Shown piece after piece: positions 5,166 through 63,536 of a DNA stretch of 64,000 nucleotides. The notes beneath the pieces are model-generated. The model did no database searches. It was not told the origin of the DNA and worked only from the letters and a program-made list of their open reading frames with translations. The stretch comes from an uncultured cyanobacterium (lineage in GTDB: Bacteria > Cyanobacteriota > Cyanobacteriia > Pseudanabaenales > Pseudanabaenaceae). Numbering within the stretch: position 1 is the first letter of the stretch; every line of letters starts with the position of its first letter. The position numbers were made by a program, and so were the translations under genes. Location of the stretch: the NCBI GenBank assembly GCA_963703315.1, contig OY969811.1, forward strand, positions 2,400,001-2,464,000, in the 5' to 3' direction.

Positions 5166-5266
5166 TACCAAAACTAAAAATGGCGTAGCCATTTTTAGTT
5201 TTAAAAACCCTTACTGGGTTTGTTTTTTAATTCACGAAAGTGTGACAACACTTTCATGAATTGGTA
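5166..5266. repeat. Palindromic MITE-like element, family E (TACCAA...TTGGTA)
   Basis: Two hairpins, CTAAAAATGGCGTAGCCATTTTTAG and AATTCACGAAAGTGTGACAACACTTTCATGAATT; related pieces at ~20038-20078, ~27600-27675 and ~58847-58885. Confidence 0.7.
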
Positions 5267-5311
5267 TAAAACCTAGAAATAGCAGAAAATGTCATTAATG
5301 TCATTCATGCT

Positions 5312-16186: not shown

Positions 16187-16418
16187 CAGAGCTTTTGAAA
16201 TTTTTCTTGTATTTGTTCTGCTCGAAAATTTCTTTAATTATGTCGCCGAATCTGACTAGTGTTTGTAACAATTATGCAAGGTGCGACCATTTAGACATCT
16301 GAAACCCCAAAAAGAGGGGCGGCGCTTTGCGCCGCCCCTCTTTTTGGGGTTTCAGAAAGTTACTGCTGAAAGATATTAGAATAGGACAGCAATCTTTTCG
16401 GCTTGGTTAAACACTTTC

Positions 16419-20076: not shown

Positions 20077-20191
20077 TATAGCTATAGTCAGTTATGTTAG
20101 GACAAAACCAAAACCCAAAAGAGAAGTGCGGCGCTTTGCGCCGCACTTCTCTTTTGGGTTTTATGTCTTAACTTGCTTGGCTATGGCTATA
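20077..20191. repeat. MITE-like element, family C (TATAGC...GCTATA)
   Basis: Terminal inverted repeats and a central hairpin; inverted copy at 39203-39311. Confidence 0.8.
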
Positions 20192-24993: not shown

Positions 24994-26193
24994 ATGAGTG
25001 TTTCTGGAATGCAACGAAAACGGGTCTTATTTATTAGCAATGGTCATGGTGAAGACCTGAATGCTTGCGAAGTGCTGAAGGCTTTGCGGCGCAAATCAGA
25101 AGTGGAGGCGATCGCTTTGCCAATTGTGGGAGAGGGTAAGGCATATCGTCAGGCAGGAGTGGCGATCGCAACGCCGACAAAAGCACTACCATCAGGGGGC
25201 TTTGGCTATCTGAGTTTGCGAAAACAAATCGCGGATTTTCAATCAGGATTAATCAATCTCACTTGGCAACAAATTCGCGCTGCTAGGGAATGTGGCAAAA
25301 CCTGTGATTTTGTGTTTGCGACTGGGGATGTGGTTCCTGCGATTTTTGCTTACCTAACGGGATTGCCCTATAGCTTATTTTTAGTCGCTTCATCGGGTTT
25401 TTATGAAAATCGCTATGTGCCGCGTTGGGAACAATCCTTAATCATGCGATCGCGGCGATGTCGCCAGATTTTTGCAAAGGATGACTATAGCGCTCAACTG
25501 CTGCAACAGGGCGGCTACCAAAATGTGAGTTGTTTGGGCTATCCGATTATGGATGTTCTCGAACCAACGGGCAAAGATTTGTGTTTGACACCTAATGTAC
25601 CGATGATTGCGTTACTGACAGGTAGCCGTTTACCTGAAGCCGCCGAAAATTTAGTTTTGCAATTACACCTATGTGTGGCGATCGCCCAAGAATTTGCCCC
25701 CGATCCTGTACAGTTTCGGGCGGCGCTTGTGCCTAGTCTGATGCCGTTATTGCCTGAACTGGCGATCCAAGCTGGTTGGCAATATGCTGATGGCAAACTG
25801 TATTATGAAAATTTAGGTGTTAGCGTTCTCTGTTTTAGTGATGCCTTTCCTGATATTTTGCAGCAATGCGATCTCGTAATTGGCATGGCAGGTACAGCCG
25901 TTGAGCAAGCGGTGGGACTAGGAAAACCAATTGTGCAAATTATCGGCAATGGTCCCCAATTTTCCTATCGATTTGCGGAAGCTCAACAAAGGTTACTGGG
26001 TTTATCAGTACAAACTATTGGCAAAGAACCTGCGACAACTGAGATTTTGCTAGAAGCAGCCAGTTGTATCAAACGGACTCTAGGCGATCGCGAATATCTC
26101 CAACGCTGTCAACAAAATGGATTAGAACGACTTGGCACAAAGGGCGCTTCTGAAAGGTTAGCCGATGCGATCGCTCAACAGTTAGCCAAATAA
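24994..26193 (+). CDS. Lipid-A-disaccharide synthase-related GT-B protein
   Basis: ISNGHGED, LLTGSRxPEA, GMAGTAVEQAVGLGKP and GPQF motifs. Confidence 0.85.
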   Translation: MSVSGMQRKRVLFISNGHGEDLNACEVLKALRRKSEVEAIALPIVGEGKAYRQAGVAIATPTKALPSGGFGYLSLRKQIADFQSGLINLTWQQIRAARECGKTCDFVFATGDVVPAIFAYLTGLPYSLFLVASSGFYENRYVPRWEQSLIMRSRRCRQIFAKDDYSAQLLQQGGYQNVSCLGYPIMDVLEPTGKDLCLTPNVPMIALLTGSRLPEAAENLVLQLHLCVAIAQEFAPDPVQFRAALVPSLMPLLPELAIQAGWQYADGKLYYENLGVSVLCFSDAFPDILQQCDLVIGMAGTAVEQAVGLGKPIVQIIGNGPQFSYRFAEAQQRLLGLSVQTIGKEPATTEILLEAASCIKRTLGDREYLQRCQQNGLERLGTKGASERLADAIAQQLAK

Positions 26194-26227
26194 TCCCCAC
26201 GTAGATACTGTCTTGAGTACCAAAAAG

Positions 26228-27214
26228 TCAAGAGGGAATTTGAACAAAATTTGGGTCGAAAGAACGCTGAGACTTGAGAACGCCAAAGACCTGTCGTAAC
26301 AGCTTGTGCATGACAGCCCCAATGACAGACATTTTGGACTTACCCTTAGCCGTAAGGCGAGCGCAGAAAGCAGCAATCGGCAAATTATAACGACGGGCAA
26401 CAATCGCAGGCATAAACAAAGCTTTACGCAAACGCGAATTACCAATTTTAGATAAACGTGGCTTACCATGAATCGAAGAACCAGATGAGAACTCACGGGG
26501 AGTTAAACCCGCAAAAGCTGCCAGTTGATCAGCAGTATCAAAGGCAGAAATATCCCGAATTTCCGCCAGTAATATAGTTGCGGTCAGTTCAGCAATACCA
26601 GGAATAGAAGTCAACAAATCCCGTTGAGATTTCAAATGAGGGTGTTGATCAAAGTGCTGACGGATCAATTTTTTGGTCATCTCAATTTGCTCTTTGAGAA
26701 AATCAATGTGAGCATTAATTGCCTCAACCAAAATTGGATCAGCCGTAGCAAGACGATTCTGCTCTTGCTGCTGCATAGCAGTTAAGCTATCTAAACGATG
26801 CACCAATGCTTGTAGTTGCTCAATTTCTAATGCTGGTGGTGTCCAAAGAGCAGGTTTTAAGGCTGCACAAAATCTAGCAATGACTTTAGCATCAGCACGG
26901 TCAGTCTTTGTACGACTTAACTCACTCTTGCCAAAGGCTTTGGGACGGGATGGATTAACAATACTTACTTTGTATCCTGCCTCTACTAAGAATCTAGCTA
27001 ACCCATTGCCGTAAGTGCTGGTAGCTTCCATACAACTATGCAAGTTTGTCACATTTTGAAGGTTTAGCCATTCTTGTAATTCAGCAAATCCTTCAGGATT
27101 GTTGGCAAATACTTTGCTCTTGATTTTGGCGTTGCCTTGGATTAGAGCAACATCAAATTTGGCTTTGCTGATATCTATTCCTAAAACATCATATACTTCA
27201 TTGTTATTGTTCAT
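26228..27214 (-). CDS. IS110 recombinase/transposase (DEDD RuvC-like domain plus Tnp20 domain)
   Basis: GIDISK, MEATS, KTDRADA, SIPGIA, AFAGLTPREFSSG (catalytic Ser loop) and GNSRLRKAL motifs; intact 328 aa. Confidence 0.97.
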   Translation of the reverse strand: MNNNNEVYDVLGIDISKAKFDVALIQGNAKIKSKVFANNPEGFAELQEWLNLQNVTNLHSCMEATSTYGNGLARFLVEAGYKVSIVNPSRPKAFGKSELSRTKTDRADAKVIARFCAALKPALWTPPALEIEQLQALVHRLDSLTAMQQQEQNRLATADPILVEAINAHIDFLKEQIEMTKKLIRQHFDQHPHLKSQRDLLTSIPGIAELTATILLAEIRDISAFDTADQLAAFAGLTPREFSSGSSIHGKPRLSKIGNSRLRKALFMPAIVARRYNLPIAAFCARLTAKGKSKMSVIGAVMHKLLRQVFGVLKSQRSFDPNFVQIPS

Positions 27215-27249
27215 TGGGGGCAGTCCTCTTGCTAGATTTGTCCATCAAG

Positions 27250-27455
27250 CAATCAGTGGTATTGAACTATCCTTGTGAATGCAGGTTTACCCGTTGGGCG
27301 ACCTCTGATACTGTCCAGTCTTTACTTGTTTCCACTGTTTAAGCAGAGACGACTCTATCTACAAAACGGGCTTGGTGTCCCTAGGGGCAGATCGAGTTTA
27401 TCTCTGCTTTTGCTTTTTCGGATTGTAGTAAAGATTTTATCCTTTACTTTTCCTC
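27250..27455 (-). ncRNA. Putative IS110 bridge RNA (5' hairpin, target-binding loop, donor-binding loop)
   Basis: Minus strand: AAGCAGAGA..ACTC-GA-TCTGCCCCT-AGGG..CCC-GTTT-TGTAG-ATA-GAGT..TCTCTGCTT, then CAGTGG..ACTGG-ACAGTATC-AGAGGT..ACCT-GCATT-CACAAG-GATAGT..CCACTG; guides match target and donor; transcript ends approximate. Confidence 0.85.
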
Positions 27456-27464
27456 CTAGATACA

Positions 27465-27535
27465 AGGGGCAGAGCATTCCTATAGAAATCAACAAAATTT
27501 CAGGCGATTTTGATTTGGGAATGCTCTGCCCTAAC
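27465..27535. repeat. GTAG-REP doublet interrupted by the IS110 (its left GT lies at 26201-26202)
   Basis: AGGGGCAGAGCATTCC ... GGAATGCTCTGCCCTAAC inverted repeat. Confidence 0.8.
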
Positions 27536-27571
27536 CTCGCAACGCAGGGACAATTGATCCCTGAAATCATA

Positions 27572-27722
27572 AAGGGTTGAGCATTTGCATTGCCAATTTA
27601 TACCAATTCACAAAAGTGTTGTCACACTTTTGTGAATTGGAGACCAAACGCAGTAAGGGTTTTTAGTTCTGGTATTTAGAGGCGTGAGTATAAAGATATT
27701 GGTGCAAATGCTCAACCCCTAT
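27572..27722. repeat. REP-like inverted repeat with a nested family-E element
   Basis: AGGGTTGAGCATTTGCA ... TGCAAATGCTCAACCCCT flanking TACCAATTCACAAAAGTGTTGTCACACTTTTGTGAATTGG. Confidence 0.7.
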
Positions 27723-27801
27723 GAGTTTGTTGTTATAAATTAATGATGCGAATAATTTATGACAGTAACGACTTTTTGAATTTTTTAATATAATAAAAAT
27801 C

Positions 27802-32362: not shown

Positions 32363-32477
32363 TACAGCAAAGCAAGTTTTGCTTAGGACATAAAACAAGA
32401 AGTGAGTGGCGGCGCAAAGCGCCGCCACTCACTTCTTGGGTTTTGGTTTGTACTAGCTAACTCTTTATTTTGCTATA
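32363..32477. repeat. MITE-like element, family C' (TA(C/T)AGCAA...TTGCTATA)
   Basis: Copies at 52983-53096 (inverted), 58046-58158 and ~50034-50145 (partial). Confidence 0.8.
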
Positions 32478-39100: not shown

Positions 39101-39473
39101 TAAGTAGCTAGGCTTAAAACCAGAGCTTGTGCCGCCAACTATGCGGGCGACACAAGCTCTGGTTTTTGGGTTTAACTATGCTGAGCTACTTAAGTTAGAT
39201 TTTATAGCCATAGCTAAGCAAGTTAAGACATAAAACCCAAAAGAGAGTGGCGGCGCCCGCCACTCTCTTTTGGGTTTTGGTTTTGTCCTAACATAACTGA
39301 CTACAGCTATATAATCGTTGATGTTTGGTATTACCATCAGCCTGTAAAAAAATTACATAAGAAATTACATAAGTATTTGGGCGCAATTAAATATAAAATC
39401 CAAAAACCTGTGGCGCTCGCTGCGCGAGCGCCACAGGTTTTTACTCTAGTTTTTAATTATGCCCAGCTACTTA
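39101..39473. repeat. Cluster of three MITE-like palindromes (39101-39192, 39203-39311, 39370-39473)
   Basis: TAAGTAGC...GCTACTTA (family B) and TATAGC...GCTATA (family C) termini, each with a long central hairpin. Confidence 0.8.
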
Positions 39474-41111: not shown

Positions 41112-41214
41112 AAAATGGCTAGCACAAAACGTTGTATATCGCATTTTATATTCTAGTGAAGAGATTATTTACCCTTTACAAGGCGTGTCTGTTTCAAGAA
41201 ATAACCCTGCCTTA

Positions 41215-41319
41215 TAACTAGCTGGGTGCAATTAAATATAAAACCCCAAAACTTGTGGCGCACGCGCAGCGTGCGCCACAAGTTTTGGATTTGATTTTTT
41301 AATTATGCCCAACTACTTA
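41215..41319. repeat. MITE-like element, family B
   Basis: TAGCTGGGTGCAATTAAATATAAAA-[TGTGGCGCACGCGCAGCGTGCGCCACA]-TTAATTATGCCCAACTACTTA; copies at 39370, ~45390-45466 and 52355-52449. Confidence 0.8.
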
Positions 41320-52937: not shown

Positions 52938-53167
52938 ATATCGCGATCGCCTTGCTTGTCTGGACAATCAAGGTGATTAAGATACAGCAAAGCAAGAGTT
53001 AGCTAGTACAAGTCAAAACCCAAGAAGTGAGTTGCAGCGCTTCGCGCTGCAACTCACTTCTTGTTTTATGTCCTAAGCAAAACTTGCATTGCTATAATCT
53101 AAAATCAATTAATGATGTTAGATTATTTTCTTTTGCCACAATCTAACAAATTTGTTGATAGTAAAAG

Positions 53168-57995: not shown

Positions 57996-58209
57996 GCTGT
58001 ACAGGGCAATAACACTAGTGTTTTTTATCCTATCAGCGATCGTCATATAGCAAAAAAGTTTTGCTTAGGACACAAAACCAGAAGCGAGTTGCGGCGCTCC
58101 GCGCCGCAACTCGCTTCTGGGGTTTTAGTTTGTACTAACCCACTCTTGCTTTGCTATAGGAAGTGCGGTAATGCTTTAGGCTATTAGGATAATTTTTTGG
58201 GGAAAAGTG

Positions 58210-58936: not shown

Positions 58937-59883
58937 AAATCCATCATCACAAATTAGTAAGGCGATCGCTATATGTCTCAATCATTTGATCGCTCAATTT
59001 ATTCGTAATTTCATCTGTTTGTGGATATCGTTCCTTTATTTCTTGTGCAAAAGAGAATTTTCATCCATTCACTAATTGCTGAAAGCGACTATCTTCTCTA
59101 ATTCCATTAAACTCAGGATCTCGTCTTGCTCGTTTTCTAGTCATATTTGGCTTCTGAGCAATAGCTAAATCCAGATATTTAACTGAATCTTCAACATTGT
59201 TCTGTAAGGCGTAACAACAAGATTTTGCATAGAGAACATCAACGTTATTAGGATTATTATCCAAAGCTATATCGCAAATTTCTAGAGATTTTTTGTGTTG
59301 ATCTATCCAAGCAAACAAAACGCCACGACTAACTTGTAATCTAATGTCATCTGGTGCTATTTCTAAAGCTTTATTGAAATCATTGAGAGCTTCCTTATAT
59401 CGGTTAAGCCTTGTCAGTGTAATAGCCCTATGAAGCCAAGCTTCAGCATGGTTTTCTTGCAGTTTTATGGCTATATCATATCTATACAAAGCTTCTTCAT
59501 ATTTTTCTAATAATGTAAAAACATACCCAGTATTCATAAATGCTTTATTATTGTCAGGCTTTAGCTTAATAGCTTTATCAAAATCCGCAATTGCCTCTTG
59601 GTATTTTTCTAAATTAGCCTTTGCTAAACCTCGATTATTCCAAGCGTCAATAAAATCTGCTTTTAACTTAATAGCTTCATTAAAGTCTATAATTGCTTCT
59701 TGATATTTTTCTAGATCAGCTTTTGCTAAGCCTCGATTATTCCAAACATCAATATAGCCTATTTTTAGATTAATTGCTTCATCATAATCCGAGATTGCTT
59801 CTTGATATCTCCCTAAATTAGCTTTTGCAACACCTCGATTATTCCAAGCTTCAGGAAGGTTTGACTTTAGCCTAATAGCTTCG

Positions 59884-60950: not shown

Positions 60951-63536
60951 TAGCTTCGTCATAATCGGCAATCGCTTCCTCAAATTTTTTTAAATTACTC
61001 TTTACATTTCCTCGATTAGACCAAGCTTCAGAAAAGTCTGATTTTAACTTAATAGCTTCGTCATAATCATCGATTGCTTCTTCATGTTTGTTTAAATTAG
61101 CCTTTGCTAGACCTCGATTACTCCAAGTCTCAGGAAGGTTTGGCTGTAGCTTAATAGCTACATCGTAATTTGAGATCGCTTCTTCATACTTTTCCAAATT
61201 ATTTTTTGCAATTCCTCGATTATTCCAAGCATCAATAAGATTCGATTTTAGCTTAATAGCTTCATTGTAATCTATAATAGCTTCTTCATATTTCTCTAAG
61301 TTGGCTTTTGCAACCCCTCGATTGTTCCAAACTTCAGAAATATCTGGTTTTAGATTAATGGATTCGTTAAAACTAATACTTGCTTCTTCATATCTATGTA
61401 AACTCAAGTAAATAAGACCAACAAAATAAAATATGTGGCTGCTATATTCAGGTTTAATTTTGTTTTTAAGGAATTTAGATTGAATTTCTAAGTGCTTTAC
61501 TATTTCGATTTTTTGGAACTCATTACAACGAGATAATTTGCCAGCTAATCCCATATACTTGGATAATCCGTCAGGCAAGAAGTCTACATATTGCAAAAAC
61601 ATTTTTATAATATCTTCTATTTTCTCCACATCTCCTCGTGTTAACTGAGTCTCATCGACTTTGATCCCAGAAACAGGCTGTGAAATTATCATGAACCAGA
61701 CAACAGAGAAATATGGAGATATACTTTCTATGTTTTCTAAAAATTTTCGATTCTCATGGCTCAATAAATGATTGTTCGCTACTTCTGCTTCTGCGATAAT
61801 CGCAGCAACAGGAGCGAGCGCAACCTCAGTTTGATTGAAATATCGAGAGCTTAAGAAATGGTGGAGAAAACAAAGCTTTCCATCTTCTCCACGCAAACTA
61901 AAAAATGCGTGATAAATTGCTTCAGAAGTATATCTAATCCAATCAAAGTTTCCATATTTTTCTGATTCACAACTATTTAGCGGAACTTCTTGATTCGCTT
62001 CACCCTCAAAATGCTCTCTCAAAAGATAATGGATTGCTCGGAATTTACTACGGTCATCACTATATAAGGATTTTCTAATAGCATCTCGTGCTACATCTTT
62101 TAGACAATATTTGCCATCACTGTCTCTAATATATTCAACTGCATTAAACCGCTTCAGCCAGTCAAAGCAATCAAAAATCGGATCAACATCTGCTTTAAAG
62201 TCTAGATCTTGATAAGTAACCAATTTTTTTATCAACGATTTATCAAACCAACGACAACAAGCCGCTAGCTCAATTAGACGCTTTTGATTATCAGTTAGTC
62301 TCTTGAGTAATCGCTCAAAAATTTCTTCAGTGTAGTTAATCGATTCACCATCTTGATTATCTTGTCTAACTAGATCTAAGTGAAATGGGAATCCTTTAGT
62401 TGTATTGTGAAGACTGTTAATGATTCTTCTGTCAGAAATTCCGATAGATTCTAAGTATTTTGTTGTTTCCTCTTTCTTGAATAGTTCTAATTGAGCCTGT
62501 TGAACTAACTTTGTTCTTGATATTAATTCTTTCCAATTATCATTTTTAGATATATTGTCTTGACCAGCTATAACCAAGCGAATTTTGCTGGCTTTCAAAG
62601 CTTTATTTGTCAAAAATAATTGCCGTAGCCAAATGTCAATATCTGCCGAAGCTTTCTCATATGTATCTAAAATCAGTATAATAGGAGTATGTTTAGCTTT
62701 ACACACTATGCTTTCAACAAATGCCTGAGTTATTTTAGGCAAAGGATCTATTATCAATTCTCGTAATTTTTGTTCCGCTTTTGTTGCCTGATGTTTGAGT
62801 AAAAGATCTTTAAGGGATAAAGCACTAACAGCCCCATCTATGGCAAAATCCACAGTCTGATCAACATTTGTTTTTGTAGAAGTTGCAAACAAAGCCAAGG
62901 GGTTTCCTAAACCGCCTAAAAGGGCTTGACCTGCCAAAAAAGTATTGGCTCCAAGCTTGCTTAGTTTCTTAAATAGATCAATCTGCTCTTTTGTGACTAC
63001 ACCATTAGTCTCAACAGGCTGTGTACCTAGAGCATTAAGAGTTTTCTTGTAATTTTCACAAATTTTTTCAAACGGATCGCTCTGTCGTATTTTTGATATA
63101 TCTTTCTCGAAAAGCCCAAGCTGTGGAATCTCCTTGTAGAGCTTTTCCATAACACTCAAGGGATTTTCATCAACAGAGTTGAAATCAAATCTATCGAAAG
63201 AGATTTTAGCAAAACAAATTTTCTCTTTGTCTGTGCCATAAAGTTCTTCTTCAAGTTTGTCTAGCAACGTGGACTTACCGACACCACCAATCCCCCAAAC
63301 ATAAAACATAACAGGAGATGACTCTGGCTGAGCGATCGCCTTTTTGACATTATTTATTAAACTTTCTTCTTGCGGACGGACAATGTGTGGCTTTTGATTA
63401 GTCATCTAAGAAATTGCGGCTAAGTCACAAACTATTTTTGAAATTCTTGTATAAGTAATTCTAACCTGATTTTTATATGTTTGCTATGCATTAGCCTCTT
63501 ATACACAGCAAACATTAGTAATTATGGAAAGAACAT

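What the first reader, a model, noticed from the sequence alone, without database searches (positions are those of the whole stretch)
26195..27535. IS110 inserted at a CT core inside a GTAG-REP; donor junction conserved while the target guide differs
Seen: the left flank is CCCACGT-AG|ATACTGT and the right flank is TAGATACA|AG-GGGCAGAGCATTCC. The empty site is CACGTAGGGGCAGAGCATTCC, one arm of an inverted-repeat doublet whose partner is GGAATGCTCTGCCCTAAC (27518-27535). The partner arm reads TCTGCCCTAAC rather than TCTGCCCCTAC, so it mismatches the guide and is unoccupied. The predicted circle junction is ACAGTAT-CT-TGTAT, which as I recall is the E. coli IS621 donor sequence, and IS621 also targets GTAG-REPs. 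Inference: the donor loop is conserved across phyla while the target loop has been retuned to the host's own REP family, giving a repeated intergenic safe harbour.
Basis: partly seen in the sequence, partly recalled or inferred. Interest (0 to 1): 0.8.

Follow-up and report, generated by a model that had tools for sequence, protein, structure and literature searches.

The report
Cyanobacterial IS621-type RNA-guided insertion sequence
This is an intact RNA-guided jumping gene of the known IS621 kind that lands on the ends of its host's small DNA repeats; its close relatives carry many different aiming sequences and often break or double exactly at the DNA that encodes that aim, which may hint at how such elements change target.

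Summary
Observation confirmed; interpretation mostly right but largely known. Window 26205-27466 is a 1262-bp IS621-type IS110 element, one of 7 near-identical copies. Its predicted circle junction equals the IS621 donor. The left end encodes a bridge RNA with IS621-like donor guides and a target guide matching the GTAG end of a RAYT-associated repeat: 5 of 10 guide-perfect sites are occupied, against 1 of 55 other repeat ends. Two corrections: the 'partner arm' is the other strand of the same hairpin, not a second REP, and the harbour is not wholly safe, since one copy splits a GmrSD gene. A conserved donor loop with a variable target loop is already published (Durrant 2024). Beyond the finding: relatives carry 10 left-guide variants that track their own insertion sites, and 6 of 9 internal left-end breaks lie at the core of the guide-encoding DNA, one of them one base off, as excision scars or self-insertions. 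The guide's DNA copy looks like a half-target, a possible route to guide swapping; three searches did not find this described. Verdict: new member of a known kind, with a testable side lead.

The parts
26205..27466 (-). IS110 element of the IS621 clade, 1262 bp counting one CT core
   Evidence: 7 copies with the same ends in different flanks
26228..27214 (-). Bridge recombinase gene, 328 aa; D14, E63, D105, D108, S244 match IS621 D11/E60/D102/D105/S241
   Evidence: PF01548 + PF02371; NF033542 above cutoff; aligns to IS621 and ISCro4 chains; residues
26203..26204 (-). CT core at the right-end junction (left donor | right target)
26205..26231 (-). Short right end: left-donor half next to the core and a -35-like hexamer (26226-26231). 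In the circle a -10-like hexamer forms across the junction 18 nt away (inferred junction promoter)
   Evidence: promoter activity not tested
27465..27466 (-). CT core at the left-end junction (left target | right donor)
27255..27410 (-). Predicted bridge RNA: target-binding loop (about 27341-27409) and donor-binding loop (about 27257-27337); ends approximate
   Evidence: fold z = -3.49, 0 of 200 shuffles as good; guides collinear with IS621
27383..27391 (-). Left target guide TCTGCCC+CT. As DNA it is also a left half-target with core; relatives break or duplicate at this point
27357..27365 (-). Right target guide GTAG (27359-27362), possible 3-nt extension and handshake bases
27307..27314 (-). 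Left donor guide, identical to IS621
27270..27281 (-). Right donor guide (ACAAG at 27272-27276 plus an upstream AT) and handshake bases
26201..26204 (+). GTAG tag of the interrupted REP (left remnant)
   Evidence: IS-free allele of a related strain continues GTAG then GG
27467..27533 (+).
   Evidence: ssDNA fold of the empty site; family listing
27574..27722 (-). Second, inverted REP of the doublet; outer end mismatched and unoccupied; another repeat (about 27597-27665) is nested in its loop
24994..26193 (+). Upstream host gene (TIGR03492), intact, stop codon 10 bp before the core

Best explanation
An intact, recently spread IS621-clade bridge-recombinase element. It excises or is copied out as a circle. 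The joined ends form the IS621-type donor and probably a promoter for the left-end bridge RNA. The donor loop reads that junction. The target loop reads the invariant GTAG tag of the host's RAYT-associated REPs with its right guide and the first 7 bases of the REP stem with its left guide. The recombinase tetramer joins the two DNAs at CT. Shown here: boundaries, junction sequence, guide sequences, site preference, and guide-target covariation in relatives. Inferred from IS621: the RNA, the circle, the promoter and the chemistry.
For: Domains and catalytic residues. Seven copies with the same ends; targets are 5 perfect, 1 with the position-4 G-to-A change that IS621 also tolerates, and 1 with two mismatches. 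Occupancy 5 of 10 guide-perfect sites against 1 of 55 other repeat ends, Fisher p = 1.7e-4 (loose motif definition). Donor equals IS621's. Left end folds (z -3.49) with the four guides in IS621 order. Among 49 copies (7 own plus 42 of 49 relative loci whose loop could be read) there are 10 left-guide variants and GTAG in 48 of 49. Own-guide match at positions 1-4 is 2.87 against 1.73 shuffled (39 unique rows, p = 5e-5; by guide class p = 4e-5; kin are not independent). The single RAYT (NF047646 above cutoff) has 4 repeat ends within 700 bp.
Against: No transcript or circle shown. No circle joint in 4 runs held as contigs. 13 of 49 copies match their own guide at 5 of 7 or fewer positions, so the guide does not explain every site. 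No orthologous empty allele with the same REP was found: 3 of 19 relative loci are syntenic and lack both the repeat and the IS, and one related-strain contig supports only the left boundary.
Confidence: 0.93

Rival explanations
1. Site choice comes mainly from the REP hairpin structure or the GTAG tag recognised by protein, with the RNA guide secondary.
For: 6 of 7 copies sit at hairpin ends; 13 of 49 copies match their guide at 5 of 7 or fewer positions. A preprint title and abstract start report sequence-structure matching for ISPpu10 (search listing only).
Against: Repeat ends with the same hairpin and one or two changed stem bases are almost all empty (1 of 55). Guides and targets covary in relatives. 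The off-target copy is in a gene, outside the repeat family.
Confidence: 0.06
2. (About the side lead.) The breaks at the guide core come from replication slippage between the 8-9-nt direct repeats formed by the left junction and the guide DNA 83 bp apart, from other IS elements that prefer TA or CTAG, or from misassembly, and not from the element's recombinase.
For: Slippage gives the same tandem as in L160, L171 and L133. These lie at contig ends of short-read assemblies, and L133 has one extra T. L066 breaks 3 nt after the core. L117 breaks next to a transposase-like ORF and L147 inside one (family names recalled). The reciprocal junction was found in 0 of 71 genomes.
Against: L111 lies in a 6-contig genome (G405) and joins the guide core exactly to the right flank of the empty repeat (compare L149), with only 3 nt of microhomology. 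L077 (4-contig genome G441) and L147 join the guide core to sequences matching the right donor at 4 of 5 positions; the background for that is 1.7% per CT. The same stub stands at two different loci in one metagenome.
Confidence: 0.3
3. (About guide diversity.) New left guides arise by point mutation plus ordinary homologous gene conversion among co-resident copies about 90% alike, with no special mechanism.
For: L109 equals L110 over about 1270 aligned bases except 5 positions, all in the target loop and all equal to a co-resident 7-copy family. Its first 60 bases are L110-type, which a single crossover at the core cannot give. Other copies look mosaic.
Against: It does not explain the precise scars and tandems at the core. 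A polishing error in L109 is not excluded.
Confidence: 0.55

Closest known systems
IS621 of Escherichia coli and its bridge RNA (Durrant 2024, PMC11208160: abstract, passages, sections 6 and 9; Hiraizumi 2024, PMC11208158: passages)
   Same: Domain order, DEDD + Ser residues, long left end and short right end, CT core, identical 14-nt donor, identical left donor guide, GTAG right target guide, insertion at the GTAG end of host REPs, tolerance of a position-4 G:T pair.
   Different: About 44% protein identity. The left target guide differs. The right end is much shorter, and the predicted -10 box spans the core. The host is a cyanobacterium whose REPs are GTAG plus 60-70-nt hairpins in doublets.
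ISCro4 / IS622 (PDB 9T56; bioRxiv 10.1101/2025.05.14.653916, passages)
   Same: Same clade and architecture; best structural-sequence hit (E 3.5e-76).
   Different: Enterobacterial, 88% identical to IS621; its target and donor were not compared here.
REP-targeting IS elements (Tobes and Pareja 2006, PMC1525189, abstract only) and cyanobacterial GTAG REPs / REPtrons (Di Nocera 2013, PMC3733652, passages)
   Same: IS elements that insert into host REPs are known from several proteobacteria; GTAG repeats and RAYT genes are known in cyanobacteria.
   Different: Neither the abstract nor the passages read link a cyanobacterial IS110 to REPs. I did not check whether this repeat equals a catalogued GTAG family (figure not held).
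Half-match recombination and tandem expansion of IS110 (bioRxiv 10.64898/2026.08.31.748434: abstract and section 8; 10.64898/2026.08.14.744561: passages)
   Same: A single left-target half-site suffices for IS621 recombination in vitro; tandem non-coding repeat units accumulate beside IS110 genes.
   Different: The parts read do not name the guide-encoding DNA as the half-site, and report donor-type (LD) boundaries. Their supplements (for example Figs S9, S10 on guide usage) are closed and may cover it.
Natural re-direction of seekRNA, ISEc11 versus ISXne4 (Siddiquee 2024, PMC11187229, passages)
   Same: Related elements differ in the target-reading part of the RNA.
   Different: There the proteins are 72% identical; here 7 guides occur among 10 elements 87-97% alike in DNA.

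Membership tests
IS110 family, IS621 clade | DEDD RuvC-like domain plus Tnp20 domain with catalytic serine | tested here: met
IS110 family, IS621 clade | Short protein (315-330 aa), long left end, short right end | tested here: met
   328 aa; left end 252 bp, right end about 25 bp (size range)
IS110 family, IS621 clade | CT core at both ends, no other target duplication | tested here: met
   7 of 7 copies
IS110 family, IS621 clade | Left end encodes four guides in the order LTG, RTG, LDG, RDG matching target and donor | tested here: met
IS110 family, IS621 clade | Bridge RNA is expressed and bound by the recombinase | not testable with these tools
   One RNA run had contigs of related elements over part of the stretch; contigs cannot show transcription
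IS110 family, IS621 clade | Circular intermediate with the predicted junction | tested here: inconclusive
   Not in the genome; no such joint in 4 contig sets
IS110 family, IS621 clade | Promoter rebuilt across the circle junction | tested here: inconclusive
   -35-like and -10-like hexamers 18 nt apart, the -10 completed only in the circle; no activity data
GTAG REP / REPIN | GTAG tag followed by a palindrome, dispersed, in inverted doublets | tested here: met
   70 tagged ends in 37 loci; listing
GTAG REP / REPIN | Associated with a RAYT gene | tested here: met
   G000 C1:348762-349283, NF047646 85.3 bits, cutoff 80; single copy; 4 ends within 700 bp
GTAG REP / REPIN | Extragenic position | tested here: inconclusive
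   True for the window copy; not tallied genome-wide
IS1111 group | Non-coding RNA downstream of the transposase, long subterminal inverted repeats | tested here: not met
   Guides lie upstream; right end about 25 bp (definition)

The most novel reading that the evidence does not exclude
The DNA that encodes the left target guide is itself a left half-target with a CT core, so these elements recombine inside their own bridge-RNA gene. Recombination with the right junction leaves an 84-bp stub that is now a perfect target (seen: L111). A new circle inserting there gives stub plus full element (seen: L160, L171, L133), and this composite moves as one unit with a spare guide. Collapse of the tandem at the two cores would put the stub's guide into the working RNA. 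That would be a built-in, recombinase-driven route for swapping guides among elements that share one donor, and it would help explain how a clade with a fixed donor loop and a fixed GTAG guide retunes 4-5 bases to one host REP family after another. A shared donor may also let one element ride on another's RNA: L003 matches its own guide at 1 of 7 positions but the guide of co-resident L011 at 7 of 7.
Probability: 0.3. Interest if true: 0.78.

Novelty: new member of a known kind. Interest (0 to 1): 0.48.

Why it matters
The element itself confirms a published rule (donor loop conserved, target loop variable) in a cyanobacterium and adds a compact natural orthologue set: 10 natural left guides in close relatives. 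How bridge RNAs change target in nature is open as far as three searches show. If the guide's own DNA is a recombination hot spot, it gives a testable mechanism. It is also a practical warning for bridge-recombinase editing, because the plasmid that expresses a bridge RNA carries a half-target for that RNA.

Tried and rejected
Rfam: no family matches 26100-27800 (two chance hits). Orthologous empty allele: among the top 19 relative loci (of 47 genomes with a hit), 3 are syntenic and lack both the repeat and the IS; the others have other neighbours. Circle junction in public runs: none among the listed joints of 4 of 24 runs, all contigs; not evidence of absence. RNA run X6: partial cover by related elements, no use for expression. 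Reciprocal junction (right end joined to the rest of the target loop): 0 of 71 genomes. Ancestral guide of L109: the genome behind L012 shares its right flank but holds no left end. Tree of 10 transposase genes: unresolved, 1 of 7 inner branches supported, so no statement on guide homoplasy. Extended right-guide pairing compensating for a poor left match: Spearman -0.44, p = 0.026, n = 25 non-independent copies; suggestive only. The metagenome motif scan gave 23 stretches, of which 10 were unrelated chance matches. (IS621 left end in E. coli genomes) could not show tandem forms and was not used. 'Partner arm is a second, mismatched target' rejected. 'Donor conservation is tied to REP targeting' rejected. 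No structure or complex prediction was run: solved close relatives exist.

Full report
Observation. A 328-aa ORF at 26228-27214 (-) carries PF01548 and PF02371, passes NF033542 and aligns to the IS621 and ISCro4 chains of solved structures, with D14, E63, D105, D108 and S244 in place. The nearest named relatives are Pseudanabaena records at 93-99% protein identity. The genome has 7 copies with identical protein. They share both ends at CT cores in different flanks; the element is 1262-1263 bp. The predicted circle junction equals the IS621 donor in a published oligo (PMC13396178, one passage) and in an annotated IS621 copy.

Bridge RNA. The left end folds better than 200 of 200 shuffles (z -3.49). 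Aligned with IS621 it shows the four guides in the same order: left target guide at 27383-27391, right target guide GTAG at 27359-27362, left donor guide at 27307-27314 (identical to IS621) and right donor guide near 27272-27281. A -35-like hexamer in the right end lies 18 nt from a -10-like hexamer whose last base exists only in the circle. This is a motif match only; for IS621 a junction promoter is shown (PMC13626964, passages).

Target. The targets of the 7 copies are 5 perfect matches, 1 with G-to-A at position 4 (the change IS621 tolerates, section 9 of PMC11208160) and 1 with two mismatches. In an IS-free copy of the genome all 10 perfect sites are ends of one repeat family and 5 are occupied; 1 of 55 other family ends is occupied (p = 1.7e-4). 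The family has 70 tagged ends in 37 loci, and 4 of them lie around the single RAYT gene, so 'GTAG-REP' is justified. Each REP is GTAG plus a long hairpin. The real partner REP ends at 27722 and mismatches the guide. At two other loci both ends of a doublet are occupied. The seventh copy splits a roughly 598-aa ORF with a GmrSD N-terminal domain, and its right flank matches a 3-nt extension of the right guide. A contig of a related strain in run X2 lacks the element and most of the repeat but continues from GTAG with GG, which supports the left boundary only (joint at 90% likeness).

Relatives. The left end was found in 18 of 48 genomes of the genus. I read the target loop in 42 of 49 relative loci (7 dropped: loop cut off or broken) plus the 7 own copies. 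There are 10 left-guide variants; GTAG stands in 48 of 49; 22 copies match their flank at 7 of 7 positions, 14 at 6, and 13 at 5 or fewer. Own-guide match at positions 1-4 is 2.87 against 1.73 shuffled (p = 5e-5), and p = 4e-5 by guide class; kin are not independent, so the p values overstate. Among 10 full elements 87-97% alike, the 5-nt window over the left guide is the most variable of 1263 windows, while the donor guides differ at one position in one element. In more distant relatives, read by eye, the donor is exact in other cyanobacteria and in IS621, has one-base variants in several proteobacteria, and is kept by members whose right guide is not GTAG. Durrant 2024 already reports a variable first loop and a conserved second loop across 103 orthologues, and IS insertion into REPs is long known. 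Two earlier notes of this scan describe similar cyanobacterial elements as known in kind (unchecked AI notes, not used as support).

Side lead 1: breaks at the guide core. Of 72 distinct left-end starts in all loci held, 42 run on in full, 21 end with the contig or locus, and 9 break internally. Six of the 9 break at the CT that ends the left guide, from 5 assemblies. L111 joins it exactly to the right flank of the empty repeat. L160 and L171 join it exactly to a second left end, at two loci of one metagenome. L133 does the same with one extra T. L077 and L147 join it to sequence matching the right donor at 4 of 5 positions (background 1.7%). A rough binomial for 5 of 8 independent breaks within one base of a fixed place is 1e-7 (computed after the pattern was seen). 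The other three: L066 breaks 3 nt later, L117 beside another transposase, L170 is an internal deletion. These junction types are the ones a bridge recombinase makes, and a single left-target half-site suffices for IS621 in vitro (section 8 of 10.64898/2026.08.31.748434). Against: slippage between short direct repeats gives the same tandems, three cases lie at contig ends, the reciprocal junction was found in 0 of 71 genomes, and none of the 7 copies in this genome shows the feature. That recombinase does this is inferred (about 0.7); that it swaps guides in nature is a further step (about 0.3).

Side lead 2: guide exchange. L109 equals L110 over about 1270 aligned bases except 5 positions, all in the target loop and all equal to a co-resident 7-copy family; 3 of them change the guide. 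It sits in the repeat family used by its own lineage. Short-tract gene conversion fits best; a polishing error is not excluded. L003 matches its own guide at 1 of 7 positions but the guide of co-resident L011 at 7 of 7. The L011-type site occurs 14 times empty in that genome, the L003-type site 4 times, below its control. This fits use of another element's RNA through the shared donor; it is one case, in a metagenome-assembled genome.

Print check. Searches found no paper describing guide conversion, self-insertion at the guide or guide acquisition for bridge RNAs; none of the 15 papers listed of 51 in one search held the word Pseudanabaena; a term look-up in the half-match preprint gave no hit. 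The library lacks most subscription papers and ISfinder, and preprint supplements are closed, so this is 'not found', not 'unpublished'. One preprint reports tandem non-coding units with half-match boundaries, which may overlap.

Verdict. The finding is real and its main inference is right, but it is an instance of a published mechanism: a new member of the IS621 kind. The interest comes from the relatives, where the guide changes fast and the guide-encoding DNA is a breakpoint. Interest 0.48.

Noticed in passing
G000 C1:3867578-3870636: A roughly 598-aa ORF with a GmrSD (PF03235) N-terminal domain is split by the off-target IS110 copy; a possible defence gene knocked out.
   Followed up: partly
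G000 C1:348762-349283: Single RAYT gene flanked by the targeted repeat doublets; an IS copy occupies the outer end of the upstream doublet.
   Followed up: yes
G000 C1:2714900-2717550 and 3075070-3077720: Two loci with inverted, divergent IS copies at both ends of one repeat doublet; possible substrates for inversion.
   Followed up: no
window 27597-27665: A different, highly repeated hairpin element is nested in the loop of the second REP; a related copy lies at 5202-5270.
   Followed up: no
window, e.g. 16302-16364, 20111-20173, 32392-32454, 39369-39454, 41214-41299, 53017-53079, 58074-58136: Several other dispersed palindromic repeat families with long stems.
   Followed up: no
window 59366-59869 and 60951-61454: 102-bp-period repeats in two blocks, probably coding repeats of 34 residues.
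   Followed up: no
G000 C1:3984970-3985820: Tandem run of 6-7 copies of the targeted REP at 131-bp spacing, none occupied; all mismatch the guide.
   Followed up: no
L170, L172, L180: Internally deleted, short non-coding derivatives that keep both ends and the target loop but lack the donor loop; they could be moved only in trans.
   Followed up: partly
L114 (G446 C1:3630890-3632790): Copy with only 3 of 7 left-guide matches whose right flank matches the 3-nt extended right guide fully, as in the off-target copy of G000.
   Followed up: partly
L011: The donor-loop handshake base changes together with target position 7 (T against A), as the handshake model predicts.
   Followed up: partly
L026-L028, L030: A subfamily at about 60% protein identity has a longer left end preceded by short tandem repeats.
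   Followed up: no
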